From the NCBI GenBank assembly GCA_016207515.1, contig JACQPN010000012.1:31759-95758 (forward strand): 64,000 nucleotides of DNA. Reading direction: 5' to 3'. This document shows, piece by piece, positions 8,101-44,014 of the stretch. The translations under genes and the position numbers were made by a program. The DNA is from Methanobacteriota archaeon. Its GTDB lineage: Archaea; Thermoplasmatota; SW-10-69-26; JACQPN01. Each line of letters opens with the position of its first letter. Positions within the stretch are counted from its first letter, which is position 1. Below the pieces are notes generated by a model that had not been told where the DNA came from, searched no databases, and saw only the letters and a list, made by a program, of their open reading frames with translations.

Positions 8101-11100
8101 ATCGACGGGTTCGGCAACATGTACGTCGCGGGCAAGACCCACTCGGGCGATTTCCCCGTGACGGCGAACGCGGAGCAAGGCACCTTCGCAAGCTACTATT
8201 TCTACAACTCCGACGCGTTCTTGTCGGAGCTCGATCCGTTGGGCGCGTCCCTCGTCTATTCGAGTTTCCTTGGCGGCCGGGAGACCGACGTCGCCAACGC
8301 GATGGCGATGGACGAGTTCGGCAATCTCATCCTGGTCGGGACCACGGGTTCGTCAGATTTCCCGGTCGCGAACGCCATACAGCCGGAGAACGCGGGCGGC
8401 TCTGGGATGGACGCATTCGTCACGAAGATCCCGTTCCTCGGTGGCGGCGTCGGGAACGGCAACAATGGCAACAACTTCCCGACGATCCAGGACGCCATCA
8501 ATAATTCGCGTCCCGGCGACACGATCTACATCGCCCCGGGCACCTACCTCGAAGCGCTCACCGTGGACAAGAACCGGTGGGGCGAGGACCTCACGGACCT
8601 CTTCCTATGCGGCGCGACGGAAGCGGGGGTCCGGGGTTGCGGCGGGTTCTCCAACGAGGGGCCGAAGGTGATCGTCGACGCAACGGGTATCTCTGACACG
8701 GTCATCGACGTGAGCGCAGGCGGATTCACTTCGCTTACCGTTAGGTACCAACACCTCGGGCCTGCCGAGGGCGACGAGGTCGTCGGGGCCCGCTTCAACG
8801 ACGTGTATTATCCGCAGTTCAACACCAATTGGATCGTCGTCCAAGGCGGGGGCTGTACGCAGGCCCAAGTGGCGGCGGGCCAATGCGATCAAGCCGGAGG
8901 GGCCCGCGTCTACGGCGTCAAGGGGAGGACGCTCGGCGGCTTCCTGGCGTACAACACCGTCTCGGCGGACGTCCCCCTCGCCGACGGTTCGATCGGCGGC
9001 ACGTCAGGCTTCAAGGGGTGGTTCTACTACACGGGGCTTCGCGGCAACACCGTGAAAGGGTGGACGACGGCGGCGTTCGAGGTCACCGACGTCGTGAACA
9101 TCATCGAGGACGGGGTCGTCGATACGAACTCGGTGGGTGTTCTCCTGTGCGGGACGACCTACTCGGTCATCGTGAACAACGACTTCAAGAACAACGGGGC
9201 GGCCCTGTCTTACTGCGCGACGAACGTCTCCGTGCCGAACTACATCCACTTCAACAAGTTCGAGACGAGTAACGCCATCGGCGCGTCCGTTCCGGACGGC
9301 GTCGAAGGACAGGTGATAGATCTAAGGGCCAACGATTGGCAGATCTACCGTCACACGGGGATCGGGCCCCGCGTCGCCGATTCGGGAACGGGTAACACCG
9401 TGAAGTACGTGCCGTTCATGCTCGTCGACGGGAGCATCGAACCGCCGCTCGTCGTAGTGTCCCCATACCCGCACTGGTCCTGCGACTATTCGTGGGCCGA
9501 GGTCATCATCGTCTACGACAATTATTGGGACTACCACTGCGCATTCACGTCGATCGACGGCGCGCTCCAATTCGCCCAGAGCGGCGACACGATGATCGCG
9601 CCCGGCTCCATCTACCCGACGAGCCCCACGCCGCGACTTGAGAACGTGACGATCGAGAGCAATGCGCCTTTCTTCGAGGAATCGTCGAGGCTCGACGGCG
9701 TCAGGATCTGCAGCAGCACGCGGGACAACAACACGGCCTGCAACCCATCGGCGGGGATCAACGTCGTGGACTCGTCGGGATCGGGCAAGCCGGCTTTCAC
9801 CGTCGGCGAAGTCGAGGGTGTCCTCATCGACGGTTTCACCTTCACCGGCGCGAGTCCGGTCTTTTCTTCCGAAGGTTCGACGGCGATGGAAGTGCGCGAC
9901 AGCACGTTCGCCGTGAGCGCTAGCGCGACACAGGCCCGGCACGGCGCGATCCTCCGGGACACGACGGACGCCGTGCTCCGCTTCAACCGCGTGCTTGGGA
10001 ACATGTACCCGGGGAGCATCGGCATCGGAGCGTACGATTCCGTGGACCCGACGGTCTCATTGAACAACATCGACCAGAGCGGGACCGGTGTCTATTTCAG
10101 CGGCGTGGTCGGCGGCGAGGCGCGCGGCAACGTGATACGCGTCGCCCCGGCTTCGCAGTTCGGCGGCCAGTCGCTCGGCGTCAGTTTCTTCACCGGCACC
10201 GGTCAGGCGGCGCGGTACAACACCTTCGAAGGCACGGGGATAGGCCTCACGGTCAAGGGAGCGACCGAGGTCTACGCGCATTCGAACACCTGGAACGCCG
10301 TGCCGACCGGGATCCGGCTTTCGGCCTCGTGGGCTCCGATTGATGCGGCACAGCCCGATGGCATACTTCTCCGGTACAACCGTCTCGATGGCGCCGCCAC
10401 GAAACTCCTCATAGAACCGGGTGTCGCAGGACTCGCCGTCGATGCGCGATACAACCATTGGGGTGCTTACAGCAGGGACACCATTGAAGCAACTATCGAA
10501 GACGCCGGGACCGGCGATTCCGTCGACGTGTCCTGCTTTTACGACCTCGACGGGACGCACACCGTCTGCCCGCCGACCCCGTCGTTTGACGTCTCGCCCG
10601 CGACCGGCCATTGGCGGACGGCCTTCACGTTCACGGACACCTCGACACCGGGCGGTCGTGCCATCGATTCATGGGATTGGGACTTCTCGGACGGGTCGAC
10701 GGCCGCTGGATCGACGGTGAGCCACACCTTCGCCCGCTCGGGCGTCCTGCAAGCGACGCTCACCATCGAGGACGCGGAAGGTTACGTCGAGTCCACGACC
10801 CGCGACGTGACCGTGACGAATGCGGCGCCGGTCCTTCAACCCGTGGGCGCGAAGACGATCGCCGAGGCGAGCGAACTCCGGTTCTATGTCCAAGGTAGCG
10901 ACCCCGATGGGGATTCCCTTACGTTCGTCGCGTCGGACCTACCGGCCGGCGCGTCGCTTTCGAACCTGCCGGACGGGCGCGGACTTTTCGCGTGGACCCC
11001 CTCGTTTTCGCAGGCCGGCGTCCACCGTGTGACCTTGGGCGTTACCGACGGGGACCTCACCGGTTCTGAAGCCGTCGACATCACCGTCGGAAACGTCGAT

Positions 11101-11925
11101 CGGCCACCGATCGCATCGCTCATCGGGCCGTCGATACTTCGCTTGGGGCAGGTCGGAACATTCACGAGCACTTCCACGGACCCCGACGGCCAATTGGCGG
11201 GCGAGGACTGGAGCTTCGACGACGGGGCCACGGCCGCGGGCAAGACGGTGACGCATGCATTCGCGACCGAGGCTTCACACTACTACACTTTGACCGTGAC
11301 CGACCCCGAAGGCGCGTCCGCTTCCATCACGAGGAGCGTGATCGTCGACGGCACGGCACCGGTCACGACCGCAGCGGCCACGGGGACGCGATCCCCGTCC
11401 GGTTGGTACACGTCAAGCGTTTCCGTGACGCTCCTCGCCTCCGACTCCGGCGGTTCTGGTCTCCTGGCGACCTACTACCGGTGGAACGGCGGGAACCGCA
11501 TCGGCTACAATCCGTCGACCGGCATCAACGTCCCGACCGACGGGACGACGTCGATCGCGTTCTGGTCCGAGGACCGCGCCGGGAACGCGGAGTCGTCAGG
11601 CCTCATGACCATCCGGATCGACAGGACGGCGCCGGTCGCGTCAATCACATCGCCTTCGACGTTGGCCGGTACTGACGTCGGAATCGTGGAGCCGGGCCCG
11701 GTGAACTTCACGGCCGACGTAAGCGATGGCACGGGATCGGGCGTAGCGCAAGTGAAGTTCTACGTGGATGGGGTGCTCGTCAAGGTGCAGACCGGAAGCG
11801 GGCCTTACTATCACCTTTGGGACGCTTCGACGGCAACGCCCGGTCGGCACGTCTTGGAGGTGCGGGCCATCGACGCCGTGGGCTTCGCAAGGTCGGAATC
11901 GGTGAGCGTCATCAGGAGACCATAG
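5158..11925 (+). CDS. giant secreted multidomain surface protein, 2255 aa
   Basis: GAGGGAG Shine-Dalgarno before the ATG; signal peptide MRRRAGGSKARAFSTIIAVALLATPGSTAFF. Domains in order: N-terminal FEENLGQVD...YDFVLRPGADADQIRL domain; SBBP-type repeats (GGTGDDVAEAVAIGSDGSTYFAGWTWSSDFPTT and similar); Kelch-like blades (YIFGG...RYDPxTDT); beta-helix starts (IQDAINNSRPGDTIYIAPGTYLE); two PKD domains (WDFSDGSTAAGSTVSHTF); a cadherin-like Ig domain (SDPDGDSLTF); and the conserved C-terminal module. Confidence 0.9.
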   Translation: MRRRAGGSKARAFSTIIAVALLATPGSTAFFPGEASAAPAEGHEAEGSETAFPSAVENVPPVVSDLLGRVGLPKAPFASPGGPPTPVTEQSFVPPTPDPVGFEENLGQVDPRVRFTLRDGGSMLYLLDDSFVLRLIDVSKRDENGAPAESTMSVVSFTMEGVAPGLRPAASASLPMTGNHFIGSDPHGWVSGAAHYERVTYASVYEGIDLVFRSTAAGPEYDFVLRPGADADQIRLRIDGTDGILIDPMGELVVKTGAGEIRHAKPSVYQVSDAGRVDVPGSFFMISEDTVGFQTLWKDAAAELVIDPLVYSTFYGGTGDDVAEAVAIGSDGSTYFAGWTWSSDFPTTTGSYSASKPTDIYGCGCQYVFFITKFNAAATSVEFATYVGDSVGLDPTHVGMALDGADRVYVTGATYGPDYPLVNPVENPPSGIDRVRAVVSKLSADGSTLLFSTTIGEGSSSKGHALVVADDGTIWVAGDAREGFPTTPDAIDSAYAGAGYDQGDAVLARLDPAGSIVYATYLGGLSDDEINTLSVSPDGRITVAGDTRSATFPTTAGAFMERGPSLPRVSAEAASATIGDHTYIFGGLECLGNGFSYCDDVVRFGAADLSAEVMTARFPTGFSLAAGASDRTYGYAIGGFDVVSCGEGCYTGAWSGAIRRYDPTADAVAIMGASVEPRAGAAAVGLGDYVYIFGGTYDYFYPTRSDILRYDPATDTVETMGATLPSPNGWEGWGDGPAATDGSSIYLFAGQRPGSMLDTIMRYDPSTDSLTTMTAAFPAPLARASALWTGTAFYIFGGVTECEGCYLTPVDTVYRYDPLTDTLTTVAGTLPTTLYSASATWDGTNAYLLGGFAGWQLSFGVLRFDPVFGATSGLTNGGGRDAFVAEIAGNGTSLAWSTLLGGDTDDALNAMAFDGNGQILVAGSTYSLDFPTQFAFDSTRAGSGEVPSQDAFLSRLSSTGNALLYSTFLGGEEDDAANAVGIDGFGNMYVAGKTHSGDFPVTANAEQGTFASYYFYNSDAFLSELDPLGASLVYSSFLGGRETDVANAMAMDEFGNLILVGTTGSSDFPVANAIQPENAGGSGMDAFVTKIPFLGGGVGNGNNGNNFPTIQDAINNSRPGDTIYIAPGTYLEALTVDKNRWGEDLTDLFLCGATEAGVRGCGGFSNEGPKVIVDATGISDTVIDVSAGGFTSLTVRYQHLGPAEGDEVVGARFNDVYYPQFNTNWIVVQGGGCTQAQVAAGQCDQAGGARVYGVKGRTLGGFLAYNTVSADVPLADGSIGGTSGFKGWFYYTGLRGNTVKGWTTAAFEVTDVVNIIEDGVVDTNSVGVLLCGTTYSVIVNNDFKNNGAALSYCATNVSVPNYIHFNKFETSNAIGASVPDGVEGQVIDLRANDWQIYRHTGIGPRVADSGTGNTVKYVPFMLVDGSIEPPLVVVSPYPHWSCDYSWAEVIIVYDNYWDYHCAFTSIDGALQFAQSGDTMIAPGSIYPTSPTPRLENVTIESNAPFFEESSRLDGVRICSSTRDNNTACNPSAGINVVDSSGSGKPAFTVGEVEGVLIDGFTFTGASPVFSSEGSTAMEVRDSTFAVSASATQARHGAILRDTTDAVLRFNRVLGNMYPGSIGIGAYDSVDPTVSLNNIDQSGTGVYFSGVVGGEARGNVIRVAPASQFGGQSLGVSFFTGTGQAARYNTFEGTGIGLTVKGATEVYAHSNTWNAVPTGIRLSASWAPIDAAQPDGILLRYNRLDGAATKLLIEPGVAGLAVDARYNHWGAYSRDTIEATIEDAGTGDSVDVSCFYDLDGTHTVCPPTPSFDVSPATGHWRTAFTFTDTSTPGGRAIDSWDWDFSDGSTAAGSTVSHTFARSGVLQATLTIEDAEGYVESTTRDVTVTNAAPVLQPVGAKTIAEASELRFYVQGSDPDGDSLTFVASDLPAGASLSNLPDGRGLFAWTPSFSQAGVHRVTLGVTDGDLTGSEAVDITVGNVDRPPIASLIGPSILRLGQVGTFTSTSTDPDGQLAGEDWSFDDGATAAGKTVTHAFATEASHYYTLTVTDPEGASASITRSVIVDGTAPVTTAAATGTRSPSGWYTSSVSVTLLASDSGGSGLLATYYRWNGGNRIGYNPSTGINVPTDGTTSIAFWSEDRAGNAESSGLMTIRIDRTAPVASITSPSTLAGTDVGIVEPGPVNFTADVSDGTGSGVAQVKFYVDGVLVKVQTGSGPYYHLWDASTATPGRHVLEVRAIDAVGFARSESVSVIRRP
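6880..7760 (+). other. Kelch-type propeller inserted inside the SBBP repeat array (domain of the 2255-aa protein)
   Basis: Repeated blades: DHTYIFGG, GDYVYIFGGTYDY...ILRYDPATDTVETMGATLP, SSIYLFAGQ...IMRYDPSTDSLTTM, TAFYIFGG...VYRYDPLTDTLTTV, TNAYLLGG. SBBP units lie on both sides. Confidence 0.6.
11350..11922 (+). other. conserved C-terminal module, copy A (end of the 2255-aa protein)
   Basis: GWYTSSVSVTLLASDSGGSGLLATYYRWNGGNRIGYNPSTGINVP...RIDRTAPVASITSP...VNFTADVSDGTGSGVAQVKFYVDGVLVKV...GRHVLEVRAIDAVG. Collinear with 32460-33034, and shares an identical 21-nt run (11499-11519 = 32612-32632). Confidence 0.7.
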
Positions 11926-12696: not shown

Positions 12697-13845
12697 CTAC
12701 GGGCCCGCGGTCGGGCTGGCCGAGGTAAGCCAGGGGCTAAACGAGGGGGCTTGAGCTCCAGCCAGGCATTTCGTTACCGCGTCACCGCTTCCGCTTCCAA
12801 GGCCGCTTGGGCCCGACGAGTCTCCCCACCAGTTGTTCGTCCAGTTCAGGACGTTGGAAGAGCACGTTCTTAGTCCGTAGTTCGAGTTTCCGAAGATGTT
12901 GTTCCCGGAATAGGAATAGGTGCTGGTTCCACCACCGATATCGATGCCGCCGCCGGAATTGTAGGAGACGATGTTATCATCCACATGGGCGCCGCTCGAC
13001 CCAGTGTAAATGCCGACTCCGGTGTTGTTCGTGACGAGGTTGTGGCTGATGGTGACGTTGGTGTAGGAGCCCAAGAAAACGATGCCGCGAGCCGCGGCGG
13101 CCGTGACGGTATTCCCGTCAGCTACGACATTCGAACAGGCCAACACAATCCCGGAGTGACTCGAAGTGGTGACGCTATTGGCAGAAACATTCGTCCCGCC
13201 GCACGCCGCCACACTCACGCCGCTATAGCAACCTGAGACGGAATTGCTGCCGACCATTGAACCGCTGCTCGTCCCACTTATCAGAATACCAATGGACCCC
13301 ACCGAGCCAGCCGCACACTCCACCGTGTTCCCACTCACGCTCACCCCAGCGCTGTCGTGCACGAAGATGCCGTCACCAGATTGCACGCCGACCAAGTAAC
13401 TTCCCGCGGGCCCGATGGTGTTAGACTCGATTCGGACGTTCGCCGAGTCCTCCACGTAAATCTCCGCAAGTTTGTGGTGGCTGACGACGTTGTTCCGAAT
13501 AACGACGTAGGCCGTAGTTTGGATTATGGTGATGCCGCCGCACACGTCCTCGAAGGTTGAGCACTCTGGTGAGAGCGCCCCGTCAATGCTCCAACCCTCG
13601 ATCACGTAGGGGTTGGCCGCCGTACCGCATCCACCCACGACGCCGTTCGCCGCGTTTGGAACGCAAGAGACGCCCAGGCCCGCGTTTCCGATTATCAGTA
13701 TCGCTGGCCGTGAGATGGGGGCTGCGGCGGCGAGTCCTGGCAAAAAAATACTGACGAGCAAGACAAATGTGCATAACGTCACTCCGAAGCTCGAAAGCCT
13801 CCCGCCAGTCACGTCCTGAAAGTAGCCGTGGGAGTATTTCAACAT
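12697..13845 (-). CDS. secreted NosD-like right-handed parallel beta-helix protein (copy 1), 382 aa
   Basis: ORF track gives 12697..13896. I prefer the ATG at 13845 (MLKY...), which matches the MLKG... start of the paralog and leaves about 100 bp for divergent promoters. Hydrophobic signal/anchor VTLCTFVLLVSIFLPGLAAAAP. Repetitive beta-helix turns (NTIGPAG, SGNTVECAAG, SANSVTTSS, DGNTVTAAAA, ISHNLVTNNTGVGIY, DDNIVSYNSGGGI, SGNNIFGNSNYG). Terminal NWWGDSSGPSG...GDAV...SPWL motif. Confidence 0.8.
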   Translation of the reverse strand: MLKYSHGYFQDVTGGRLSSFGVTLCTFVLLVSIFLPGLAAAAPISRPAILIIGNAGLGVSCVPNAANGVVGGCGTAANPYVIEGWSIDGALSPECSTFEDVCGGITIIQTTAYVVIRNNVVSHHKLAEIYVEDSANVRIESNTIGPAGSYLVGVQSGDGIFVHDSAGVSVSGNTVECAAGSVGSIGILISGTSSGSMVGSNSVSGCYSGVSVAACGGTNVSANSVTTSSHSGIVLACSNVVADGNTVTAAAARGIVFLGSYTNVTISHNLVTNNTGVGIYTGSSGAHVDDNIVSYNSGGGIDIGGGTSTYSYSGNNIFGNSNYGLRTCSSNVLNWTNNWWGDSSGPSGLGSGSGDAVTKCLAGAQAPSFSPWLTSASPTAGP

Positions 13846-13900
13846 TCTCCGAATCGCCTGTTTGCTATCGCGCTCCAAGACTTCGCCGAAAAGCACAAAC

Positions 13901-13907
13901 TTTATAA
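13901..13907 (+). promoter_or_regulatory. TATA box candidate (tttataa) in the divergent intergenic region
   Basis: A-rich BRE-like sequence aagcacaaac lies immediately upstream. The box is 38 nt upstream of the ATG at 13945. The element is nearly palindromic (reverse complement ttataaa), so it could also serve the minus-strand gene about 55 nt away. Confidence 0.4.
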
Positions 13908-13927
13908 GCGCGCGCGCGCGCGTGTAT
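13908..13927. repeat. alternating purine-pyrimidine tract, (GC)7 followed by GTGTAT
   Basis: Read directly as gcgcgcgcgcgcgcgtgtat. It lies between the TATA candidate and the glycoprotein start codon. Confidence 0.9.
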
Positions 13928-13944: not shown

Positions 13945-16900
13945 ATGGGGCGGGCTAAGCCTAGAGCAATAATAATTACGTTCATCATTCTATTTTCTGG
14001 ATTTTCCTTTCCTCTTGATGTTGAGCCGCTACAGTTAGCTCCGGTAGCAAGCGCGGGGCACGGTGGTCCCCATCCCGAACTGAAGCAAGTCGTCACGGAC
14101 CCACCCAATCCGAATTCCACGACTGACGTGTACCTGAAGGCGGAGTGCTCAAATTGCAGCGAAATCAGTCTTGAATGGTTCGTCGACGGCGTGAAGTCAG
14201 ACGATGCCCAAATCTCATTTGAGAGCATCCCTCCGGACGGGGTTTTCAATTTCAAGTATTCACTGATTCCGGCGAGCCAGCTCAAGTACGGTGCGAACGT
14301 CACTTGGACGGCGAACGCCACATTGACCGCTCTCCTGACCGATTCCAAATCGGGGTACTTCGTCGTCGGCAACAGCCACCCGGTCGCGACCGTTCACCCG
14401 CTGCTTAAGTCTCAAGGATTCTCCGTCAATCGATTTCAATCGCTTGATTTGGAGACATTCTACAATAGGGAGTACCGCGACGGTAATTGGACCTATTGGC
14501 AGGACACCGTGAAAGTGCAGGACAAGGAGCAGGACGACAATGAGTCGTTCGCGATCCAGCAGAATCTCTCGTACAATTGGGATTTCAAGGAGGGAAACTT
14601 CAGCGCGTTCTCGAACTCGTCACGGGCCAGTCACGAGTGGCGGGACCTAGGGGATTATCAGGTCCGCGTCACCGTGAAGGATTGGAGCAAGGCGACTGGC
14701 GCGCAATTGAATTCCACCACGGCCGATATTCCGGTCCATGTTCGAAACCAGCCGCCTTCCCTAACATTTCTTGAAGCCCGTGAGATGCCCGCGATGGATT
14801 CGGACACATCTACGATCGCGGACGACGATGTCGACACGACCGACGTCCTGCGCGTGAAGGTCCATTGGTCGGATGGGGACGCTGCGACTGGCGCGGATCA
14901 AGTGTTTCTTGATTTCTACGATGTAAGCGCCACCGCCGCCGCACTGAACGCTACACGAGAGGTGAACGCGACGGGTGTTGGAGCGAACGTGTCGGTCGTT
15001 GAATTACCACTGGTGGATTTCAAGGCGTCGAGGCTTCGCGTGTGCATCCGCGACAGGGTCACCACATTGCCCGTCAACGGAGCCATCCCGTTGCAAGCTG
15101 GACGCAACCTCACGCTAGCGGGGAAGATCTGCCTCACCACAGAGATCCTTCAGAAATTCAACCCCCTTGACCTACGCGGGATCGACGTCGTCCACTTCGT
15201 GTCGGGCGATGCGCCGTTTTCCACCACGGGCAACGTCACTGATATTTGGACGAAGGTGCCGTTGGATGTCTCCACGCCGCACGAGCGGAACGAGACCATC
15301 CGGTTCTTCAATGAGAATCTCACGAAACTCATGAATGGTCGACCGCCTCGGGTACTGGCGATTGAAAGCCTCGGATACCCGTTGACCGACGAGGTGAACG
15401 CGAAGCTCGGTCTCCTGCGCGATTTGGGCACGTTGATAATCGCGCCCGTCGAAGCGAACGATTTCAGCACAACGGTGACGCAGTACTACACGGCGGGCGG
15501 AATCGGCATCAGCCGCCACGTCATCGGGGTCGGTGTCGCGAACCAGTCGATGAACGGGGCACGCCTTGGAACGCCGGCCGGGCCCAACGGCATGATGCTC
15601 GCCAAACCCGATTTCCTCGTCGCGCTTCCTGATAACATGGCTATGGCGCAAGCTCAAGTGCAGGCCGTGCGGAACGTCACGGATTTGGCCGCGATCCTCA
15701 TGCTCAAGGGGATTACAGACCCGTTCATCATCGAAGAATACCTTCGGACCATCGCCGTGCCGTCGTGGAACGGCGTCGACGCTATCGACAATGCGTGGCG
15801 CCAGGGTTATGGAATCCTTAACACGACGAACATCCTCGGCTTCGTCTCCAACGCGACTTTCAGCCCGCAAAACCTCAGCAAGGATCACAATCTCTCCGTT
15901 TGGGGAAATTCCTCGAAGCTCAACCACATCGTCGACCTTGCACCGGTCCTTCTCAATCCCTCCGCCGACTTCGGGGTCACGACGCGAGAGAACGCCACGA
16001 CGGCGCACTTGAAGCTCGTGAACCCGTCCATGGTGTTGCCAAGTCTCGGAGATCAACTCTTGGGGTCTCCGCGCGCCCTGCTCGACAAAGGTTTGCTGCC
16101 CAACACCGTCTTCGCCTCGGAGAAGAAGGTTCGCATCAACGTCACGTTCTACCACTTCCCCGAAACCCTGTTGAACAATGCGAGCGAGGCGATGCGCGGC
16201 CTCGGCCACGAATCCGCCGTTTGGAGCCTCATGGGAAGCAACACGACGGACCCGAACCTGACCGTGAACACGACCTCGGACATCCTTTCAGACTTGAATT
16301 CGAGCCGCGGAAGCCTGGACCACCCTTTGAAGCCGTATTATTTCATCCCCGAGACGACCGCGACGGTCGGCGGTGACTTCGCGGTCACCCGGATTTCTCC
16401 CTATGTCGAACCGCTCCTGGAAGCGGCCGACATCGCCTTGGACCGGACCAAGTACCTCGGGTTCTCGTCGGAATCGCCGTTGAACGCCTCGACGCGTTTC
16501 GCCATCCAGCAGCACCGGCTTGGTCTCGTCGCGCTTCGCGCTAATCTCACGAACGTCGGGGACTTGGATCGCGTCACCGGAAACGTGAGCCTCCTAAAGG
16601 TCAAGCTCACGAATCTCGTGGCGATAGTCCCTTCGGACCCCGTGTTGAAGCCCTTGAATGACACGGTGAGGAATTACACGGAGCAATTGGCGTTGTTCGC
16701 GAGTCGGACCGTGGGCGCCGTCACATCACTGGGGGACGAGACGTTTGTGGATCTCACGACGGAGGCCGAAAAGACCACGCAAGCACCCTACGGTCACTAT
16801 TTCGGCGTCGTCCGCGTCATCGCGGAGGACATCTGCAACAACTCCACCGCGACGGGACAGGATCAGACCTGCAAAACGATCATCAAAACGGCGCCGACTG

Positions 16901-19602
16901 GAATCTACCTGACTCGAAACGTCAACTTGACCGTCCGGTATCGAGATGGGACGGCAATCCCGAACGCGACGGTTCAACTGTTCATGTTGGACACGGCGCC
17001 GGAGGATACGGGCTCGTGCGAGGGCCGATTGGATTCTCCGAGCGTCTCGTTGGAGGTCCAATTGGCGCAGTCGTCGACGCGCATCCAGACGGTCTGGCGT
17101 GGGCAAACGAATCAGGACGGGAACACGACGCTTTACTCGGTCCTTCCCGGATTCTGGTGCTCACAATTCCCCTACCTGTTTCCCGCGAATTTCACCTCCC
17201 ACACGACGGCCCCGAATGGTTCGGACGCGCGACACAATGAAAGCTTTGGGGCCGTTGAGCTCACGCCCCACCAATGGGACTTCCGAGGCATGCCAAGTTA
17301 CGCGAACTACACTCGGTTCCTCTACGATTGGGGCTTTTGCAGCGTGAACACGGGCCCGGAACGCGCGTTCGAGAAATGCATCAACGGGGAGACGCCGACC
17401 TACCCCATGGTGGGCCCGGCCCGTTTGTTCTCCGGCGGAGTTTTATCGGCCGCGGGGTACGCCTTGAACCCGAAGACCGCGGTGTTGACGGCGGTGGATC
17501 GCCAGTGGGCGCGGGACCAGCTTTGCGATTGGACGCGCGGTTACAATGAACTGTTCGGAGCCGGCCTTTCCGTTGGCGACATAAACAACTCGTTAGACGT
17601 CCCCATTGTGGGAGGCAAACTCGGCGAATGCCGGGATGAAGCGGCTTTCTTCCAATGGCCCTCAGCACTCCTGATGCACGAGGCGTTCAGTGAGACTGGG
17701 CGCGTGCGCGATTACGTGAACGGGACGGAGTGGGTGACGAACAGTTGGCCGGTGGTGCCCGCCCTGCCGGGTTCGCTTCTTGACACCACTTGGGCGTTCT
17801 TGGCAAATGAGACGACAGTGACAGCGACCCCGAAGACCCTTACGGGCCCTTCCGTGATGGGCATGTTGCGTTACAATTTCACCATCCCCGAGAACGAAGT
17901 CGTGAACATCGCCACGAGCTTCCAATTCGAATTCATCGGAACGAAGGGCTTCTACGTCGTCGCCCTCGGCGACGACGCTGTGAACTCCATGGAAAGCACG
18001 CTTGCAAACGTTTCTTCAGCGGAGCCCACGTGGTTCGAGAACCCCTTACAAAAATTCCTGAATCCACACTTGAGGATCACGCCCTTCGCCACGAACCAAC
18101 CCTTGAACGTCACGTTCGATTCGCAGTGGGACTTCAACGCGACGTTGCAAGTGGAGAACCACGCGTCCCAAGGCAACATGAGCACGAATGCCGAGTGGAT
18201 GACGCGCGGTTGGAACCCGAGAGGCGGCGCGATATTCTTCGTGTTCTGGCGGGAAAGCATCGTCTCGGCGAGTCTGCTTCGCGTCACCGACTATGATTAC
18301 CGTGCTTTCACGTACCTGGGGATGGTGCCGGCCGTGGATGCGTCCTCCTACGCCGCCTCGACGGGTAATCAAGTGGACAACACGCGGGTCAATCCCGAGG
18401 CGGAAGGGTGGGACCTCCTCATTTCGACGAGCCGGAAGCTCACGAACGTCACGGTGACTCCCGGCGTGGATGACCCGACCTACCTGAATGCGTCATCCTT
18501 GTACTCGACGGGCGTGACGGAGGGTTCGGACTTCGGGCCGATCATCGAGCGCCGTGGGATCGATGATTACCCGATTACGTTGGCGTCGAATTCGAAGACG
18601 CCGGGGTTCATGGTCGACTCGTACGGGGGTGGCGTCGTGTCGCAAGACAATGGGACGTGGCGTTACCTTGGGCGTGGCATGAATTCCGCGGCCCCCGGGT
18701 ACCTTGAGCAACGGTGGGAACGCGTGGCGCCGGAAGGCGCTGGAGCGGTTGATTCGGTGATTGATGCGGCGATCGATCCATTGGCGGGCGCCAGTTTGGC
18801 GCTCGTATGTCCGGGTTGTCAGGACGATTTGTTGGATTTCGTGAATTCGTCGGCGCCGTCGTACGCGGTCCCGGATTTATTCGCCGGGAAGGCGGATAGG
18901 GTGCACCATGCTGTTTGGTTGAACACGAGCTTCAACCGGTTCTATGATGTGGGTCTTACGTGGAATGAGACTTTCGCCGAGGTGGGCGTCTCTGGGTGGA
19001 ACGCGTCCGGTCCGCTTCCGGTCGACCCGGTCGACCGTTACGTGGAACGGGAGAATACGAACACGAATTACACGATCGAGGCGCATGGATTCACGTCGCA
19101 CGCGTGTTGGATGTGGGTGATTAGCGTCCAGACATGTGCGACCGGTGGTGAGGCAAAGGTCGTTTTGGAGGCGGACCCGCGCGTGGAGCTCTTCGGTGGC
19201 GCGATGAGGTGGAGTTTCAACCTCGGCACCCTATCGGTGGTCATCGTCGACAATGACGTCGATGACGAGGTCCCGGATACGGTGGTCATCTGTCAGGATA
19301 ATCATTGTGAGGATTTCAATCCGGATGCGTGCCCGATGAGCGATGACCTGGAGTTCAGGACGTTGGCCTGTCACTTCAACATGAATGCGCCGTCGGGCTT
19401 CGTGTATTTCACGGAGCGTTCGGGTGACGTGGGGGGTCCACCGCCGTTCGAGACGATGGTGTACACGGCGCCGGTGGCTGCACATGTGTGGAACCCGTTG
19501 TACCTCGTGGATCCGAATGAGGCCCACTATCAGCCAGTGCCCATCAATTATCCCATCTGGTGCTCCGAACTTACAGATCCGGATACGTGCGTCCTTAACT
19601 AG
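13945..19602 (+). CDS. giant sequon-rich surface glycoprotein candidate with degenerate subtilase core (copy 1), 1885 aa
   Basis: ORF track gives 13828..19602. I prefer the ATG at 13945 (MGRAKPRAIIITFIILFSGFSFPL, a signal peptide). My by-eye count is about 60 N-X-S/T sequons. Cys-rich C-terminal part. Clear paralog of 46567-52173. Confidence 0.85.
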   Translation: MGRAKPRAIIITFIILFSGFSFPLDVEPLQLAPVASAGHGGPHPELKQVVTDPPNPNSTTDVYLKAECSNCSEISLEWFVDGVKSDDAQISFESIPPDGVFNFKYSLIPASQLKYGANVTWTANATLTALLTDSKSGYFVVGNSHPVATVHPLLKSQGFSVNRFQSLDLETFYNREYRDGNWTYWQDTVKVQDKEQDDNESFAIQQNLSYNWDFKEGNFSAFSNSSRASHEWRDLGDYQVRVTVKDWSKATGAQLNSTTADIPVHVRNQPPSLTFLEAREMPAMDSDTSTIADDDVDTTDVLRVKVHWSDGDAATGADQVFLDFYDVSATAAALNATREVNATGVGANVSVVELPLVDFKASRLRVCIRDRVTTLPVNGAIPLQAGRNLTLAGKICLTTEILQKFNPLDLRGIDVVHFVSGDAPFSTTGNVTDIWTKVPLDVSTPHERNETIRFFNENLTKLMNGRPPRVLAIESLGYPLTDEVNAKLGLLRDLGTLIIAPVEANDFSTTVTQYYTAGGIGISRHVIGVGVANQSMNGARLGTPAGPNGMMLAKPDFLVALPDNMAMAQAQVQAVRNVTDLAAILMLKGITDPFIIEEYLRTIAVPSWNGVDAIDNAWRQGYGILNTTNILGFVSNATFSPQNLSKDHNLSVWGNSSKLNHIVDLAPVLLNPSADFGVTTRENATTAHLKLVNPSMVLPSLGDQLLGSPRALLDKGLLPNTVFASEKKVRINVTFYHFPETLLNNASEAMRGLGHESAVWSLMGSNTTDPNLTVNTTSDILSDLNSSRGSLDHPLKPYYFIPETTATVGGDFAVTRISPYVEPLLEAADIALDRTKYLGFSSESPLNASTRFAIQQHRLGLVALRANLTNVGDLDRVTGNVSLLKVKLTNLVAIVPSDPVLKPLNDTVRNYTEQLALFASRTVGAVTSLGDETFVDLTTEAEKTTQAPYGHYFGVVRVIAEDICNNSTATGQDQTCKTIIKTAPTGIYLTRNVNLTVRYRDGTAIPNATVQLFMLDTAPEDTGSCEGRLDSPSVSLEVQLAQSSTRIQTVWRGQTNQDGNTTLYSVLPGFWCSQFPYLFPANFTSHTTAPNGSDARHNESFGAVELTPHQWDFRGMPSYANYTRFLYDWGFCSVNTGPERAFEKCINGETPTYPMVGPARLFSGGVLSAAGYALNPKTAVLTAVDRQWARDQLCDWTRGYNELFGAGLSVGDINNSLDVPIVGGKLGECRDEAAFFQWPSALLMHEAFSETGRVRDYVNGTEWVTNSWPVVPALPGSLLDTTWAFLANETTVTATPKTLTGPSVMGMLRYNFTIPENEVVNIATSFQFEFIGTKGFYVVALGDDAVNSMESTLANVSSAEPTWFENPLQKFLNPHLRITPFATNQPLNVTFDSQWDFNATLQVENHASQGNMSTNAEWMTRGWNPRGGAIFFVFWRESIVSASLLRVTDYDYRAFTYLGMVPAVDASSYAASTGNQVDNTRVNPEAEGWDLLISTSRKLTNVTVTPGVDDPTYLNASSLYSTGVTEGSDFGPIIERRGIDDYPITLASNSKTPGFMVDSYGGGVVSQDNGTWRYLGRGMNSAAPGYLEQRWERVAPEGAGAVDSVIDAAIDPLAGASLALVCPGCQDDLLDFVNSSAPSYAVPDLFAGKADRVHHAVWLNTSFNRFYDVGLTWNETFAEVGVSGWNASGPLPVDPVDRYVERENTNTNYTIEAHGFTSHACWMWVISVQTCATGGEAKVVLEADPRVELFGGAMRWSFNLGTLSVVIVDNDVDDEVPDTVVICQDNHCEDFNPDACPMSDDLEFRTLACHFNMNAPSGFVYFTERSGDVGGPPPFETMVYTAPVAAHVWNPLYLVDPNEAHYQPVPINYPIWCSELTDPDTCVLN
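15165..15840 (+). other. degenerate subtilase-like core (domain of the copy 1 glycoprotein)
   Basis: Order of subtilase landmarks is kept: LRGIDVVHFVSGD ... ESLGYP ... GTLIIAPVEAND ... HVIGVGVANQS ... AKPDFLVALP ... RNVTDLAAILML ... GYGILN. The G-T-S-M-A-A-P position reads N-V-T-D-L-A-A (Thr codon 15679-15681), and I see no H-G-T-H. Confidence 0.5.
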
Positions 19603-20673: not shown

Positions 20674-21160
20674 CGTTTGGTGGCGGGTATCGGCTCCTCG
20701 ACTCGGATGCGACCGATTGCCGGGAACCCGGTTGCGTGGCTCGGGTTGATCGAAGACGGCGCGTTATCGACGCGAAGACGACGCTACGGATCAGCATAGA
20801 TGCATCGTCTTTCCGGGAACACGAAAACCAGCGCCGATCCGCGGTCACGCCGCGGTTCACTGATCGCGTTCCGAGTTCCCGATCTCTCCGAATCTCGCAG
20901 CTGATCAGCTCCGCATTTGAACATGTTTGACAAGTATTCCAAAAACCGGTTGTTAACCTCCTATCGTAACAACGATATCATATTAATACGACCGGTGTCC
21001 TCTTCACGTAAGCCCCAGATGGCGAACTGGGACGGGAGACTGGGGAGGCGGAACGCGGTTTCCGTAGCCGAAGAAAGTGTTCGGTTGTCGGTCACGCTTT
21101 TTCGCGCGCCTCGCTTTCTCGATCGGTCAGGATTTCGTCGCCGAAAAAGAGGGATTTGAA

Positions 21161-24100
21161 ATGGCGAAAGGAGGCAACGAGGGCAAGCGGGCATTGAATG
21201 TTTTTGTGAGCGTCATGATGGTCACTTCTGGCCTATTGGTGCTTCCATTCTCGGAATGGGCGCCGTTCGGCACAGCAAGCGCGACACCGAGTTTCGGCAC
21301 AGGCGCCGCCGGTTTCACGGACTATCAACCCCCGTCGACGATGGGTAACGACGCTGCCGAGCCCGGCATAGGCGTGAACTGGAACACTGGAAAGGTGTTC
21401 ATCAATTCCAACGCAGACCAATTGCGCGTGACCTTCAACGACGCGGTCTACCCTCCGACCGCGTTTTGGGAAGACAAGAGCGCCCCCTTCTCCATAGTCA
21501 ACATCGACCCCGTGCTTTTCACCGATTCCGTCACGGGCCGCACCTTCGCCGGCGGCCTCGACGGGACTTGCAGCATCATCGGGTTCACGAGCGACGACGG
21601 TAACTCCTGGACCCCGTCGGCGGACGCCTGCGCCCATGGCGGTTGGGACCACGAGACCGTCGGCGGCGGCCCGTACGCCGAACCCCTTCGGAGCATCATC
21701 GAGGACAGCCCGATCGCGTACAAGCACGCAGTGTACTATTGTTCGCAGGTCGGCCTGGAGCCGAGCCCTGCCTTCTGTTCGCGAAGCCTCAACGGCGGCC
21801 TCACCTTCGAAGAGGTGCGCCCCACGTGGGTGAGGGATTGTTGGGCCATCTCCGGCCACATCCGCGTCGCCCCCGATGGGACCGTCTATCTCCCGTCCCG
21901 TAACTGCGGCGGCAAGGACGGCTTCGGCGTGAGCACCGACAACACGCTCAACTGGAACGTGAGGACAATACCGGGTTCGACCGCGAGCGGCCGCTTCGAC
22001 CCGAGCATCGCCCCGAGCTACAACGCGGACGGTTCGGGCAACTACTGGATCTACTACGGCCAGGCCGAGGCGAACGGCGCCTTCATCGCGGTCTCGAAGG
22101 ACCGCGGCGTCACATTCGAGGACATCGGCGCCGGCAACGGCGTCACGCCAACGAAGTGGTTGAACGTCGGCGCGCTGACGAGCCCGCCGGTGTTGCGGGC
22201 CGAGTTCGCCGAGGTCATCGCGGGCGATCACGACAGGGCCGCGTTCGCCTTCCTCGGTGCGACACAATCCGCGGCGAACCTCCCCGGTTGCGCGGCCGCA
22301 CAGAACTCGCTCGTATGGTACATGTACGTCGCCATGACGTACGACGGAGGCGTCACCTGGAACGTAGAGAAGGCCTCCGAAAAGATAGTACAACGCGGTT
22401 CCATCGGCGACCCCGATGAGACGTGCCGCAACCTCCTTGACTTCAACGACATCACCGTGGGCGCCGACGGACGCGTCCTGATCGGCTACGCCGACGGCTG
22501 CACGTCCGCGTCCTGCGAAGGGCCAAGCGGCACGGCGGGGCAGAGCCGTAGCGAAAAAGCGACCATCACGCGCCAAAGCAGCGGCCGCGGCCTCTTCGCG
22601 GCGTTCGACACCGGTTCCCCGCTTGAAGCCGACGCCGGCGGCCCATACTCGGGCGGCGTCGGGGCGCAGATCTCCTTCGACGGCGCTGCCACGGGCGGCA
22701 CCTCGCCATACTCATTCGGTTGGGACTTCGGTGACGGGAACACGGGAAGCGGCGCTTCCCCCACGCACGCCTACGCCTCTTCGGGGACGTACACGGTCAC
22801 CCTTACCGTCACCGACGCGGCAAGCACCAGCGATTCGGTCTCGACGACGGCGACAGTATCCAGTACGACCTCGGTGCCGGTCGTCGACATCGAGAACCCG
22901 GCTTCGGGTTCCACCGTGCATGACACCGTTGCGATCTCCGGGACGGCCGGTCACACGGGCGACCCGAACGGATTGACGTTTGCGGGCCTTTCCTCGGTCA
23001 CGGGCACCGGCACGACGGCGACACTTTCCTGGAGCTCCGCCTCGGGCGGCACGCCTCCCTACACGTACAACGTGTACACGGGCCCCGCCGGCAGCGTCGA
23101 TCTCGGTAGCCCTATCGAAACAACGGGCTCCACAGGAACGACGATCTCCGGCCTCGTCGCCGGCGTCGAAGCCTGTTTCATCGTCCGCGTCACCGACTCG
23201 GCCGCCTCGAGCGACACGAACACGGTGGAGAAGTGCTACCTGCCCACCTTGACGACCGAGACCATCACCTTCTACTACCACGGCGGCGAGTTCACGGACG
23301 CGCCGGACCCCGCTCCCGACAGTGCTGTCATGGTGAAGGGGACGATGAGCACGACCCCGGGCGCCGCCCCGAAGCGGGCGGTCACCGGAGGTGGCCTCGT
23401 CGGTTCTAGCCAACAGATAGGCAACGTCGTTTCTCCGGACATCGACGCCTACCCGCTCCTGTTCGAGAGCGGCCCATTGACGGGCCCCCTCACGATCGCC
23501 GACGGGACGACCACCATCACCGACAACGACGGCGCACCGTGGACCATCGCGAACAACGTCCTTCTCAGGGACTGCATCGCGGGCGGCATCGACGGCAACT
23601 ATTTCGCCGACGTGTACCAGGTGGTCGGCGACACTGCGACGCTTGTGCTCACCAACGACGCCGCGGAGTTCTCCAACACGGGCGTCCTCTCGGCCGACCC
23701 GGTCGAAGGCGACTGCGTCGTACACCACTTGGGTTACGCGGAGCCGAGCACCGCGAGCCACACTTTCCCGGTGGGAAGCAAGATCCTTGTGGGGATCCAC
23801 CCGGACTTCTTCGCCGCATCCTTCAGCGCGACCTACAAGTGGGACGGTCCGGCCCTCTATGACTCGCACCTTGAGTTCACCGGGACCTACGAGCCAGGTT
23901 CGCCGCCTGTGCAGGCGATGATAAGCGACGCCGTCGGCGACGGGCACAGCCCCGAAGCCGATTTCGTCCAGGTGGACGCGGCGGCGACGGCCACGGACCT
24001 CGTCGTGGCCATGAACGTGGACCTTCTTCTCACGTCCCCCGGCGACGGGTTCGCGTCGAGCGAGTTCCACGAATGGGACGTCGTCTTCACGATCGGGACC

Positions 24101-43030: not shown

Positions 43031-44014
43031 ATGCAGGCCGTTATCCTCGCTGGCGGGCTTGGGACGAGGATGCGCCCGCTGACGCTCACACGGCCGAAGG
43101 CGCTTCTTCCGGTCCTCAACAAGCCGGTGGTCGCGCACATCATCGACAAACTGCCGCGCGAGATCGACGAGGTCATCCTGGCGACCAACTACAAGACCGA
43201 GATGATCGAGGAGTTCTTCCTCGATGAGCCGTCCCGCATCCCCGTGCGGATAGTCACCGAACCCGAGCCGCTCGGGACGGGGGGAGCCGTCAAGAACTGC
43301 CGTGACCACCTCAAAGGCCCCACACTCGTCCTTAACTGCGACATCCTCGACTCGCTCGATCTCACCAAGTTCATTCGTTACCACCGTGAGAAGCGGGGAG
43401 CCGCGACGATCTCGCTCTGGGCCGTGGAGGATCCAAGCCACTACGGGGCCGTGTCCTACTCGAACGGGAGGATCGACAGGTTCGTGGAGAAACCGGCCCC
43501 GGGCGAAGCGCCGAGCAACCTCGTGAACGCCGGCACGTACCTCCTCGAACCCAGTGTGCTCGACTACATACCGGAAGGGAAGATGGTGTCGCTCGAACGC
43601 GAGGTGTACCCGAGGATCATCGCCGACGGGAAGGGGCTCTTCGGCTTTCCGTTCACCGGGCACTGGCTCGACGCCGGGCGCCTCGACTCTTACCTCGCCA
43701 CCCACGCTAGCCTCCTAGGCGAACGCGGCATCGTGGTCGGCCATTCCGTGAAGATGGACCAGGCCCGCGCCAAACCGTGGGCCGCCATCGGGGCCAAGAC
43801 GAGGCTTGGCCGCGGCTCCGAGGTCGAGAAGTCCGTGATATTCCCCCGCTGCCAGGTCGGCGAAGGCGTTTCCATAACGGGCTCGATCCTTGGGGAATCA
43901 TGCTCCATAGGTGACGGTGCCGTCGTACAGGACTCCGTTCTCGGCGACGGCGTCGTCGTCAAGGCGAAAACGGTCTTGAAGAAGGCCACGTTGCAGCCAG
44001 GGGAGTCGAGGTGA
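43031..44014 (+). CDS. sugar-1-phosphate nucleotidyltransferase with C-terminal left-handed beta-helix, 327 aa
   Basis: MQAVILAGGLGTRMRPLTLTRPKALLPV (the GxGTRxxPxT motif). Hexapeptide repeats at the C-terminus. The stop overlaps the next start (ATG 44011 / TGA 44012-44014). Confidence 0.85.
   Translation: MQAVILAGGLGTRMRPLTLTRPKALLPVLNKPVVAHIIDKLPREIDEVILATNYKTEMIEEFFLDEPSRIPVRIVTEPEPLGTGGAVKNCRDHLKGPTLVLNCDILDSLDLTKFIRYHREKRGAATISLWAVEDPSHYGAVSYSNGRIDRFVEKPAPGEAPSNLVNAGTYLLEPSVLDYIPEGKMVSLEREVYPRIIADGKGLFGFPFTGHWLDAGRLDSYLATHASLLGERGIVVGHSVKMDQARAKPWAAIGAKTRLGRGSEVEKSVIFPRCQVGEGVSITGSILGESCSIGDGAVVQDSVLGDGVVVKAKTVLKKATLQPGESR

What the first reader, a model, noticed from the sequence alone, without database searches (positions are those of the whole stretch)
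13945..19602. Roughly ten-fold enrichment of N-X-S/T sequons in the ~1900-aa paralogs
Counting by eye and excluding X=Pro, I find about 60 N-X-S/T sequons in the 1885-aa protein and about 57 in its paralog (46567-52173). That is roughly one per 32 residues. I find only about 6 in the 2255-aa giant protein encoded next door.

Many sequons are clustered (LNATREVNATGVGANVSV; SNTTDPNLTVNTTSDILSDLNSS; NVSLENNSTRGNMTT), and many sit at aligned positions in both paralogs. This pattern is what heavily N-glycosylated archaeal S-layer or envelope glycoproteins show. It implies the proteins are displayed as a dense glycan coat.
Basis: seen in the sequence. Interest (0 to 1): 0.65.

Follow-up and report, generated by a model that had tools for sequence, protein, structure and literature searches.

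The report
Sequon-packed giant archaeal surface glycoproteins
Two related ~1,900-residue exported proteins of an uncultured groundwater archaeon carry about 60 sugar-attachment motifs each, ten times the local background, so they are almost certainly heavily sugar-coated; this is a known habit of archaeal surface proteins seen here in an undescribed protein family.

Summary
Paralog A (13945-19602, 1885 aa) has 61 N-X-S/T sequons and paralog B (46567-52173, 1868 aa) has 57. That is 3.4 times what their own composition predicts (z about 11) and 10-11 times the density in 13 housekeeping proteins of the window.

The excess sits only at offset +2 from Asn, and the reversed motif is at expectation. 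Whenever a sequon Asn is kept between the paralogs, its +2 Ser/Thr is kept too (23 of 23). Only about 38% of sites share a column, and each paralog has about three times more private sequons than chance. Selection therefore keeps density, not positions.

The proteins are archaeal. They have an N-terminal signal peptide, a PKD domain and a subtilisin-fold core that lacks the catalytic triad. They have no C-terminal anchor.

The best reading is heavily N-glycosylated exported envelope proteins. S-layer identity and cell-surface retention are not shown.

The neighbouring 3986-aa protease-bearing giant shows the opposite pattern: offset-specific sequon avoidance (4 found, 24.8 expected).

This is a new member of a known kind, of moderate interest.

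The parts
13945..19602 (+). Paralog A gene: 1885-aa exported protein with 61 N-X-S/T sequons
   Evidence: Translation is. Counts and shuffles are, and the offset profile is. A TATA-like TTTATAA lies at 13902-13908 and a G-rich stretch lies before the ATG. The deposited gene call (P0003, 1803 aa) starts 82 codons later and would lose the signal peptide.
46567..52173 (+). Paralog B gene: 1868-aa exported protein with 57 sequons, 39-42% identical to A over its full length
   Evidence: Supported. The TTG start is preceded by GGGGAGAGG.
13945..14055 (+). N-terminal signal peptide of A: basic stretch, then a 15-residue hydrophobic stretch, then the conserved P-V-x-S-A site
   Evidence: This is the only hydrophobic segment in the protein. 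P33, V34, S36 and A37 are invariant between the paralogs. Cleavage is inferred, not shown.
14557..14712 (+). PKD domain (A residues 205-256)
   Evidence: Pfam PF00801, E = 2.7e-7. There is also a weak match to ColH PKD domains.
15172..15849 (+). Subtilisin-fold core of A (about residues 410-635) without a catalytic triad. The NVT sequon at N577 lies within a few residues of where the nucleophile Ser would be.
   Evidence: The profile of 9 relatives hits solved subtilases: 3afg at E = 7.8e-7 and subtilisin BPN' at 4e-5. The AlphaFold2 model has pLDDT 70 and pTM 0.75. The top 50 Foldseek hits are all subtilisin-family (S8) serine proteases or engineered variants of them, E about 1e-7. The alignment shows no GTSxA motif and no conserved Asp or His. 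No Pfam S8 hit was found at sequence level.
47791..48450 (+). Subtilisin-fold core of B (about residues 409-628)
   Evidence: It aligns to A with the highest identity in the protein, including KPDFLVALP, LMLKGITDPFI and NAWRQG.
19075..19599 (+). Sequon-free, Cys-rich C-terminal tail of A (last 177 residues; 137 in B). It has no transmembrane segment.
   Evidence: The last sequon is at residue 1708 in A and 1731 in B. At the proteins' own density the chance of such a tail is 0.003 (A) and 0.014 (B). Conserved Cys residues are listed.
12697..13896 (-). Divergent secreted beta-helix (NosD-like) partner gene of A. It has 4 sequons, which is at expectation.
   Evidence: Pfam Beta_helix, E = 5.6e-28. 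It is 41% identical to the copy next to B. A beta-helix domain is fused to the same core in the distant relative P0005.
45485..46468 (-). Divergent secreted beta-helix partner gene of B
   Evidence: Supported.
21077..33037 (+). Contrast: 3986-aa exported giant with an intact S8 protease and PKD repeats, and offset-specific sequon avoidance (4 sequons, 24.8 expected)
   Evidence: Supported. Ser/Thr at +2 after Asn is 5%, against 13-23% at other offsets (p = 2.6e-7). The depletion is present in every 500-aa block.
5158..11925 (+). Contrast: 2255-aa exported Kelch / beta-helix / PKD giant with 6 sequons against 12.9 expected
   Evidence: Supported. The depletion is weak on its own (z = -2.1).
43031..45426 (+). 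Overlapping sugar-1-phosphate nucleotidyltransferase and archaeal phosphoglucosamine mutase (GlmM) genes, just upstream of module B
   Evidence: GlmM matches TIGR03990 at 555.8 bits, above its cutoff of 439. The nucleotidyltransferase scores below all equivalog cutoffs. This is context only; both are housekeeping precursor enzymes.
53771..54784 (-). M28 peptidase with a lipobox-like N-terminus: 9 sequons against 1.9 expected. It is another sequon-rich exported protein.
   Evidence: Supported.

Best explanation
A and B are real, diverged paralogous genes of an uncultured groundwater archaeon. Earlier notes place it in Thermoplasmatota; I did not test that. Each encodes a protein of about 205 kDa with this layout: signal peptide, Ig-like and PKD domains, a subtilisin-fold core that has lost its catalytic triad, further unassigned helical and beta-rich domains, and a Cys-rich sequon-free tail.

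**Proposed mechanism.**
1. The protein is exported through Sec.
2. On the outer face of the membrane the archaeal oligosaccharyltransferase AglB transfers a dolichol-phosphate-linked glycan to a large share of the ~60 Asn-X-Ser/Thr sites.
3. The mature protein therefore carries a dense glycan cover, about one site per 31-33 residues along almost its whole length.

Selection acts on glycan density rather than on individual sites. Sites are lost and regained, as in a glycan shield. The cover probably protects a long-lived extracellular protein from proteolysis, and an intact giant S8 protease is encoded next door. It may also mask the protein from viruses.

The dead subtilase core most likely serves as a binding or scaffold module. 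It probably works with the co-duplicated secreted beta-helix protein.

**Shown:** motif excess, its specificity, co-conservation of Asn and Ser/Thr, positional turnover, subtilisin fold, loss of the triad, and the N-terminal hydrophobic signal.

**Inferred:** actual glycosylation, AglB as the enzyme, retention at the cell surface, the protective role, and the complex with the beta-helix protein.
For: **Motif excess and specificity.**
- 61 and 57 sequons against 18 and 17 expected; z = 11.2 and 10.8.
- The excess is only at offset +2: 52% and 51%, against 12-25% elsewhere. The reversed motif is at expectation. No Pro at +3 in 118 sequons.
- Density is 10.5-11 times that of the window's housekeeping proteins, and the excess is uniform along both proteins.

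**Selection on the motif as a unit.**
- The +2 Ser/Thr is kept in 23 of 23 cases where the sequon Asn is kept. The background Ser/Thr-to-Ser/Thr rate is 47% (p = 2.5e-8).
- Private sequons number 38 in A and 32 in B, against 11.6 and 10.7 under a null that keeps conserved columns fixed (z = 8.7 and 7.1).
- The only close homolog is a 923-aa fragment, MBI4393112.1, from a 'Euryarchaeota archaeon' MAG. It has 34 sequons (3.4 times expectation). Only 6 of 73 sequon columns are shared by all three proteins.
- Lost sequon Asn residues are replaced mostly by T, S, D, G, P and E, which are typical surface or loop residues.

**Export and archaeal setting.**
- Each protein has a single N-terminal hydrophobic segment.
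- The gene set is archaeal.

**Literature.**
- AglB is almost universal in Archaea, and Thermoplasma acidophilum membrane proteins carry N-glycans (PMC11407970).
- N-glycans on NXS/T sequons have been seen directly in Thermoplasmatales filaments (PMC12448462).
- The SlaA benchmark is in PMC2948927.

**Subtilisin fold.** Supported. The missing triad is shown.

**Internal sign that the motif is 'read' in this organism.** The adjacent 3986-aa exported giant avoids the motif specifically at offset +2.
Against: - No experimental or expression data exist. Only DNA runs from groundwater metagenomes hold the sequence.
- AglB and the agl genes could not be searched in the genome.
- No membrane anchor was found: no C-terminal TM, no PGF-CTERM, no lipobox. 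The proteins could be released rather than displayed.
- The co-encoded beta-helix partners and one other signal-peptide protein (41127-42005) are not sequon-rich. Heavy glycosylation is therefore not a general rule for this organism's exported proteins.
- Sequon occupancy cannot be predicted from sequence.
- Some distant sequon-rich relatives come from contigs whose taxonomy I could not settle.
Confidence: 0.75

Rival explanations
1. A and B are the S-layer (lattice-forming wall) glycoproteins of this archaeon. The small beta-helix protein would act as the second component, by analogy with SlaA and SlaB.
For: - They are large, exported and sequon-dense like SlaA.
- A small secreted partner gene is paired with each copy.
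- A TATA-like element lies close to the start.
Against: - No S-layer domain family was found in Pfam or NCBIfam.
- Neither the giant nor the beta-helix partner has a C-terminal TM or PGF-CTERM.
- There are two 40%-identical copies rather than one dominant gene.
- The family is almost absent from 1.84 billion representative proteins, which is unlike a lineage-wide wall protein.
That one fits an S-layer protein better.
- Cultured Thermoplasmatales lack a paracrystalline S-layer (PMC12448462).
Confidence: 0.12
2. The N-X-S/T excess is a by-product of composition or structure, not a glycosylation signal. Possible sources are Asn/Ser/Thr-rich beta-rich extracellular domains, Asn ladders, cryptic repeats or lower GC.
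For: - The genes have lower GC (57-60%) than their surroundings and twice the Asn content of neighbouring proteins.
- The beta-helix neighbours contain NxT-type repeats.
Against: - Shuffles that keep composition give 18 +/- 3.8 against 61 observed.
- Only offset +2 is enriched, and the reversed motif is at expectation.
- Spacing between sequons shows no period.
- Positions turn over between paralogs while Asn and Ser/Thr co-vary.
- Asn codon usage is the same inside and outside sequons.
- The Asn-rich beta-helix proteins themselves are at expectation.
Confidence: 0.04
3. A and B are glycosylated but are released, soluble or matrix proteins rather than cell-attached ones. Examples would be an extracellular binding protein or scaffold, or part of a polymer-degrading or adhesive assembly with the neighbouring giants. 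The glycans would then serve mainly for stability outside the cell.
For: - No anchor of any known kind was found.
- A conserved signal-peptidase-like site (P-V-x-S-A) lies after the hydrophobic segment.
- The genes sit among giant exported proteins with protease, Kelch, beta-helix and PKD modules.
- Distant relatives fuse beta-helix and Kelch modules to the same core.
Against: - A sequon-free, Cys-rich C-terminal domain conserved in both paralogs could be an attachment module.
- The hydrophobic N-terminus with 'RA' before it could also be an uncleaved anchor or a pilin-type signal. A prepilin peptidase gene lies in the window.
Confidence: 0.3

Closest known systems
SlaA, the S-layer glycoprotein of Sulfolobus acidocaldarius (PMC2948927)
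   Same: It is a large exported archaeal protein without its own membrane anchor. It has a very high sequon density: 31 in 1395 aa, and one per 30-40 aa in its C-terminal domain, nearly all occupied where tested.
   Different: No sequence or domain relationship was found. A and B keep the top SlaA density over the whole 1,885 aa (3.2 against 2.2 per 100 aa overall). The organism comes from groundwater, not a hot acid habitat. Lattice formation and a membrane-anchored partner are not shown.
Cell-surface N-glycoproteins and glycosylated filaments of Thermoplasmatales (T. acidophilum glycan cited in PMC11407970; Cuniculiplasma pilin and Oxyplasma archaellin in PMC12448462)
   Same: If the earlier placement in Thermoplasmatota holds (my own evidence shows only an archaeon), this is the same phylum-level lineage. 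In those organisms exported proteins are N-glycosylated on NXS/T, with up to 8 glycans on a ~210-aa archaellin.
   Different: Those are small filament subunits or unidentified membrane proteins. A and B are ~1,900-aa multidomain proteins of an undescribed family.
Large cell-envelope subtilases (S8 family; for example Tk-SP of Thermococcus kodakarensis, PDB 3afg, the best profile hit)
   Same: They share a subtilisin-fold core embedded in a large exported multidomain protein. The landmarks 'GP(T)...KPDxxAP' and 'QGYGxL(D/N)' are kept.
   Different: The Asp/His/Ser triad and the oxyanion Asn are not conserved, so it is not a peptidase. Pfam's S8 model does not detect it.
Viral envelope glycan shields, as a concept (my own knowledge)
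   Same: Sequon density is maintained while individual sites are gained and lost.
   Different: This is a cellular protein. No evidence of immune-like or viral pressure was obtained here.

Membership tests
AglB-dependent archaeal N-glycoprotein | Asn-X-Ser/Thr sequons (X not Pro) present and under selection | tested here: met
   There are 61 and 57 sequons (z about 11). The excess is specific to offset +2. The +2 residue is kept in 23 of 23 cases where the Asn is kept. Private sequons are about 3 times the null.
AglB-dependent archaeal N-glycoprotein | The protein is translocated across the membrane (signal peptide) | tested here: met
   Both paralogs have a basic N-terminus followed by a single 15-19-residue hydrophobic segment. 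No dedicated signal-peptide predictor was available.
AglB-dependent archaeal N-glycoprotein | The genome encodes the oligosaccharyltransferase AglB and glycan-assembly genes | not testable with these tools
The window itself holds only GlmM and a sugar-1-P nucleotidyltransferase. The literature says AglB is almost universal in Archaea (PMC11407970).
AglB-dependent archaeal N-glycoprotein | Sites are actually occupied by glycans | not testable with these tools
   This needs glycoproteomics. Only DNA runs exist for this organism.
Archaeal S-layer protein | Homology to a known S-layer protein family | tested here: not met
   Pfam finds only PKD, and NCBIfam finds nothing. PDB sequence searches find only PKD and subtilases.
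Archaeal S-layer protein | Membrane anchoring by a C-terminal TM, PGF-CTERM/archaeosortase, a lipid anchor or an anchored partner | tested here: not met
   Neither A, B nor the beta-helix partners has a C-terminal hydrophobic segment. No sorting-signal model hit was found.
Archaeal S-layer protein | Forms a 2-D lattice and is among the most abundant proteins | not testable with these tools
   No RNA runs and no imaging are available.
Subtilase (peptidase family S8) | Subtilisin alpha/beta fold | tested here: met
   The model has pLDDT 70 and pTM 0.75. The top 50 Foldseek PDB hits are all subtilisin-family (S8) serine proteases or engineered variants, with E about 1e-7 and TM about 0.5. The profile hits 3afg at E = 7.8e-7.
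Subtilase (peptidase family S8) | Catalytic Asp-His-Ser triad and oxyanion Asn | tested here: not met
   There is no GTSxA motif. The positions expected for Asp and His are Val/Ile and are not conserved between paralogs or relatives. No Pfam S8 hit was found.
PKD-domain surface protein | PKD domain above the Pfam threshold | tested here: met
   PF00801 scores 30.9 bits against a cutoff of 23.5 in A residues 206-256. It is not detected in B.

The most novel reading that the evidence does not exclude
Neighbouring giant exported proteins of one archaeon are under opposite selection on the same three-residue motif.

- The pseudo-subtilase family (A, B, the MAG homolog and several 3.7-4.3-kaa distant relatives) is driven to keep a dense glycan shield whose sites turn over.
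- The protease- and PKD-bearing giant is purged of sequons: 4 found against 25 expected, specifically at offset +2 and in every 500-aa block.

If real, the cell sorts its surface into 'coated' structural or protective proteins and deliberately 'naked' enzymatic or adhesive ones. Sequon depletion would then become a purely genomic marker of functional, glycan-intolerant surfaces in uncultured archaea. The coated pseudo-protease might be protected from, or work with, the naked active protease.
Probability: 0.3. Interest if true: 0.55.

Novelty: new member of a known kind. Interest (0 to 1): 0.4.

Why it matters
Heavy N-glycosylation of archaeal surface proteins is well known. It has been documented mostly in thermoacidophiles, halophiles and methanogens, and on S-layer proteins and filaments.

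Here the same extreme density appears in a mesophilic groundwater archaeon. The carrier is a protein family with almost no relatives in public data, built around a dead subtilase.

The paralog comparison gives a clean sequence-only demonstration of two things. The motif is selected as a unit, and density rather than position is what is kept.

Together with the sequon-purged giant next door, this offers a simple genomic test for which exported proteins of uncultured archaea are meant to be glycan-coated. It does not open a new kind of biology.

Tried and rejected

**Homolog searches.**
- Three word-indexed searches (full length, the conserved core, and a 3-sequence profile sized to catch fragments) found only the window's own protein and one irrelevant PKD protein.
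- Four collection scans, two of genome contigs and two of metagenome contigs, found no related locus.
- The exhaustive profile search returned 9 proteins.
- Exact look-ups of the window's protein and of P0004 found no contig.

**Structure.** Profile-profile comparison with the neighbour's true S8 domain gave only 4% probability.

**Population variation.** Four groundwater DNA runs hold the same strain with no differences, and there are no RNA runs.

**Taxonomy of the distant giant relatives.** Neighbouring genes (Prim-Pol, an ArdC-like protein, terminase and portal, class-2 PyrD) and a terminase search against phage records did not settle whether they are archaeal or bacterial.

**Local compensation of lost sites.** 7 of the 38 non-shared sites (about 18%) have a site within 3 columns in the paralog, about what the density predicts. 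I therefore rejected this idea.

**Explanations rejected.** Composition or low GC, structural Asn ladders, and repeats (see the rival explanations).
Full report
**1. What is there**

The window is GC-rich (about 62%) and archaeal. It encodes RadA, Hef, RtcB, a RIO kinase, an aldehyde:ferredoxin oxidoreductase, an archaeal prepilin peptidase and an archaeal-type GlmM. Four public DNA runs that hold the stretch are labelled groundwater metagenome. Earlier notes of this scan call the organism an uncultured Thermoplasmatota archaeon; I did not test that placement.

The finding's coordinates match an open frame from ATG 13945 to 19602 (1885 aa, protein A). The paralog runs from TTG 46567 to 52173 (1868 aa, protein B). 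A and B align end to end at 39-42% identity.

**2. The observation**

- A has 61 N-X-S/T sequons (X not Pro) and B has 57. The 2255-aa neighbour has 6 and the 3986-aa neighbour has 4.
- Composition predicts 18.0 for A and 17.2 for B.
- In 2000 shuffles the mean was 18.1 +/- 3.8 and the highest value was 31. That gives z = 11.2 for A and 10.8 for B.
- Half of all Asn residues lie in a sequon.
- Ser/Thr follows Asn at offset +2 in 52% (A) and 51% (B) of cases, against 12-25% at every other offset from -4 to +4.
- D, Q, G and K followed by x-[ST] are at 3-13%.
- The reversed motif is at expectation (16 and 14).
- No sequon has Pro at +3, where about 7 would be expected.
- Asn codon choice is the same inside and outside sequons, and the spacing shows no period.
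- Every 500-aa block of both proteins is 2.6-5 times over expectation.
- Thirteen housekeeping proteins of the window hold 16 sequons in 5508 aa (0.29 per 100 aa, 14.3 expected). 'Roughly ten-fold' is therefore correct: 10.5-11 times.

**3. Is the motif selected?**

- Between the paralogs, 23 sequons share a column. Random placement would give about 1.8. However, 38-40% is no more than the general identity (42%) or the conservation of non-sequon Asn (21 of 61).
- The informative result is different. In all 23 cases where a sequon Asn of A is kept in B, the +2 residue is still Ser or Thr. Other Ser/Thr residues stay Ser/Thr in only 47% of cases (binomial p = 2.5e-8). The reverse direction gives 23 of 25.
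- I kept the conserved columns fixed and shuffled only the diverged residues. A still has 38 'private' sequons against 11.6 expected (z = 8.7). B has 32 against 10.7 (z = 7.1).
- The only close homolog found anywhere is a 923-aa fragment, MBI4393112.1, from a 'Euryarchaeota archaeon' MAG. It has 34 sequons, 3.4 times expectation.
- In the shared ~920 residues the three proteins have 36, 31 and 34 sequons. Only 6 of the 73 occupied columns are common to all three.
- Lost sequon Asn residues are replaced mainly by T, S, D, G, P and E.

The motif is therefore maintained as a unit. New copies keep arising, and it is the density that is conserved.

**4. What the proteins are**

- *Hydrophobic segments.* Each protein has one, at the N-terminus behind a basic stretch, followed by a conserved P-V-x-S-A site. 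There is no C-terminal transmembrane segment, lipobox or sorting-signal match.
- *Family searches.* Pfam finds only a PKD domain in A. Sub-fragments give nothing else.
- *Rarity.* A profile search of 1.84 billion representative proteins returned nine proteins: the window's own, the MAG fragment and seven distant ones, most of them 2,700-4,350 aa.
- *Distant relatives.* Those giants share two collinear modules with A and B. One of them carries an N-terminal beta-helix domain, and the contig look-ups show Beta_helix hits on three more. In the window the beta-helix is a separate, divergently transcribed gene next to each paralog, and the two copies are 41% identical.
- *Subtilase landmarks.* The first shared module aligns with subtilase landmarks: 'RGPT...KPDxxAP' and 'EQGYGxLD' in the distant relatives; A and B keep 'AGP...KPDFLVALP' and 'RQG(Y/H)GxLN'. 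No member has GTSxA.
- *Sequence and fold evidence.* A 9-sequence profile hits solved subtilases, with Tk-SP (3afg) at E = 7.8e-7 and subtilisin BPN' at 4e-5. An AlphaFold2 model of A 396-680 has pLDDT 70 and pTM 0.75. Its top 50 Foldseek hits in the PDB are all subtilisin-family (S8) serine proteases or engineered variants.
- *Catalytic residues.* The positions expected for Asp and His are not conserved. An NVT sequon lies within a few residues of where the nucleophile would be. This is a pseudo-subtilase.
- *Linker and tail.* Five of the ten sequons in that modelled stretch fall in the low-confidence linker behind the domain. The last 177 residues of A and 137 of B are sequon-free and Cys-rich.

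**5. Context**

- Other exported proteins of the window vary. An M28 peptidase with a lipobox-like start has 9 sequons against 1.9 expected. The two beta-helix partners are at expectation. A 292-aa signal-peptide protein has none.
- The 3986-aa giant carries an intact S8 protease and many PKD domains. It shows the opposite bias: Ser/Thr at +2 after Asn in 5% of cases against 13-23% at other offsets (p = 2.6e-7). By 500-aa block it has 0, 0, 0, 1, 0, 0, 0 and 3 sequons, where 1.2-4.5 are expected.
- That offset-specific avoidance is indirect evidence that N-X-S/T is 'read' on exported proteins in this organism.
- Several distant relatives (P0005, P0007, P0008, P0010) also show +2-specific enrichment: 37-47%, with 59-75 sequons. 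Two others do not. Their contigs have 66% GC. Two lie beside mobile-element or viral genes: Prim-Pol and an ArdC-like gene in one, terminase and portal in the other. Their taxonomy stayed open.

**6. Interpretation**

The best-supported reading is Sec export followed by AglB-type N-glycosylation at many of the ~60 sites. This would give a protein with a dense glycan cover whose sites drift while the density is held.

- AglB is reported to be almost universal in Archaea, and Thermoplasma membrane proteins are N-glycosylated (PMC11407970).
- N-glycans on NXS/T have been seen directly on Thermoplasmatales filaments (PMC12448462).
- The density equals the 'remarkable' one-per-30-40-residue density of the C-terminal domain of S. 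acidocaldarius SlaA, and it exceeds SlaA's overall 2.2 per 100 aa (PMC2948927).

What is not shown is occupancy, the enzyme, attachment to the cell, or lattice formation. The S-layer label fails two testable criteria: family homology and an anchor. I put N-glycosylation at about 0.75-0.8, cell-surface retention at about 0.55, and a true S-layer role at about 0.12.

**7. Novelty and score**

Sequon-dense archaeal surface proteins are a known kind. The carrier family, a giant pseudo-subtilase paired with a beta-helix protein, is undescribed and very rare. The evidence for selection on density, and the contrasting sequon-purged neighbour, are neat but incremental. Interest is 0.4.

Noticed in passing
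window 21077-33037 (+) and 5158-11925 (+): The two PKD-rich exported giants are depleted in sequons. The 3986-aa protein has 4 against 24.8 expected. Ser/Thr at +2 after Asn is 5%, against 13-23% at other offsets (p = 2.6e-7), and every 500-aa block is depleted. The 2255-aa protein has 6 against 12.9, which is weak on its own. This looks like selection against glycosylation.
   Followed up: partly
L002 678-7168 and 10001-23038; L001 4808-6593 and 10001-21139: Two distant sequon-rich relatives (4345 and 3712 aa, beta-helix plus pseudo-subtilase core) lie next to mobile-element genes. One is beside a large terminase and a portal gene. The other is beside a Prim-Pol primase and an ArdC-like anti-restriction gene. 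Whether the giants belong to those elements, and whether the hosts are archaea, is open.
   Followed up: partly
window 13909-13927: An alternating GC/GT tract (gcgcgcgcgcgcgcgtgt) sits between the TATA-like TTTATAA at 13902-13908 and the ATG of paralog A, in the shared divergent promoter region. Such tracts can change length by slippage.
   Followed up: no
window 13945-14190: The deposited gene call for A (1803 aa) starts 82 codons downstream of ATG 13945 and so omits the signal peptide. The upstream ATG, with a TATA-like box about 40 nt before it, is the better start.
   Followed up: partly
window 13945-13990 and 46567-46612; 56897-57625: Both paralogs have Arg-Ala directly before the hydrophobic stretch (PRA|IIITF, LRA|VFLLV). 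This loosely resembles an archaeal pilin-type (class III) signal, and a prepilin peptidase gene lies in the window. The signal type (Sec-cleaved, uncleaved anchor or class III) is unresolved.
   Followed up: no
window 53771-54784 (-): An M28 peptidase with a lipobox-like N-terminus (LLLLPALGGC) has 9 sequons against 1.9 expected. It is a second, unrelated, sequon-rich exported protein.
   Followed up: no
window 15499-15633: The short-read assemblies (Logan's contigs) of two runs, X1 and X2, break at 15585-15588. There the two paralogs are most alike at DNA level (the LMLKGITDPF region). This is a repeat-induced assembly break, not a biological joint.
   Followed up: partly
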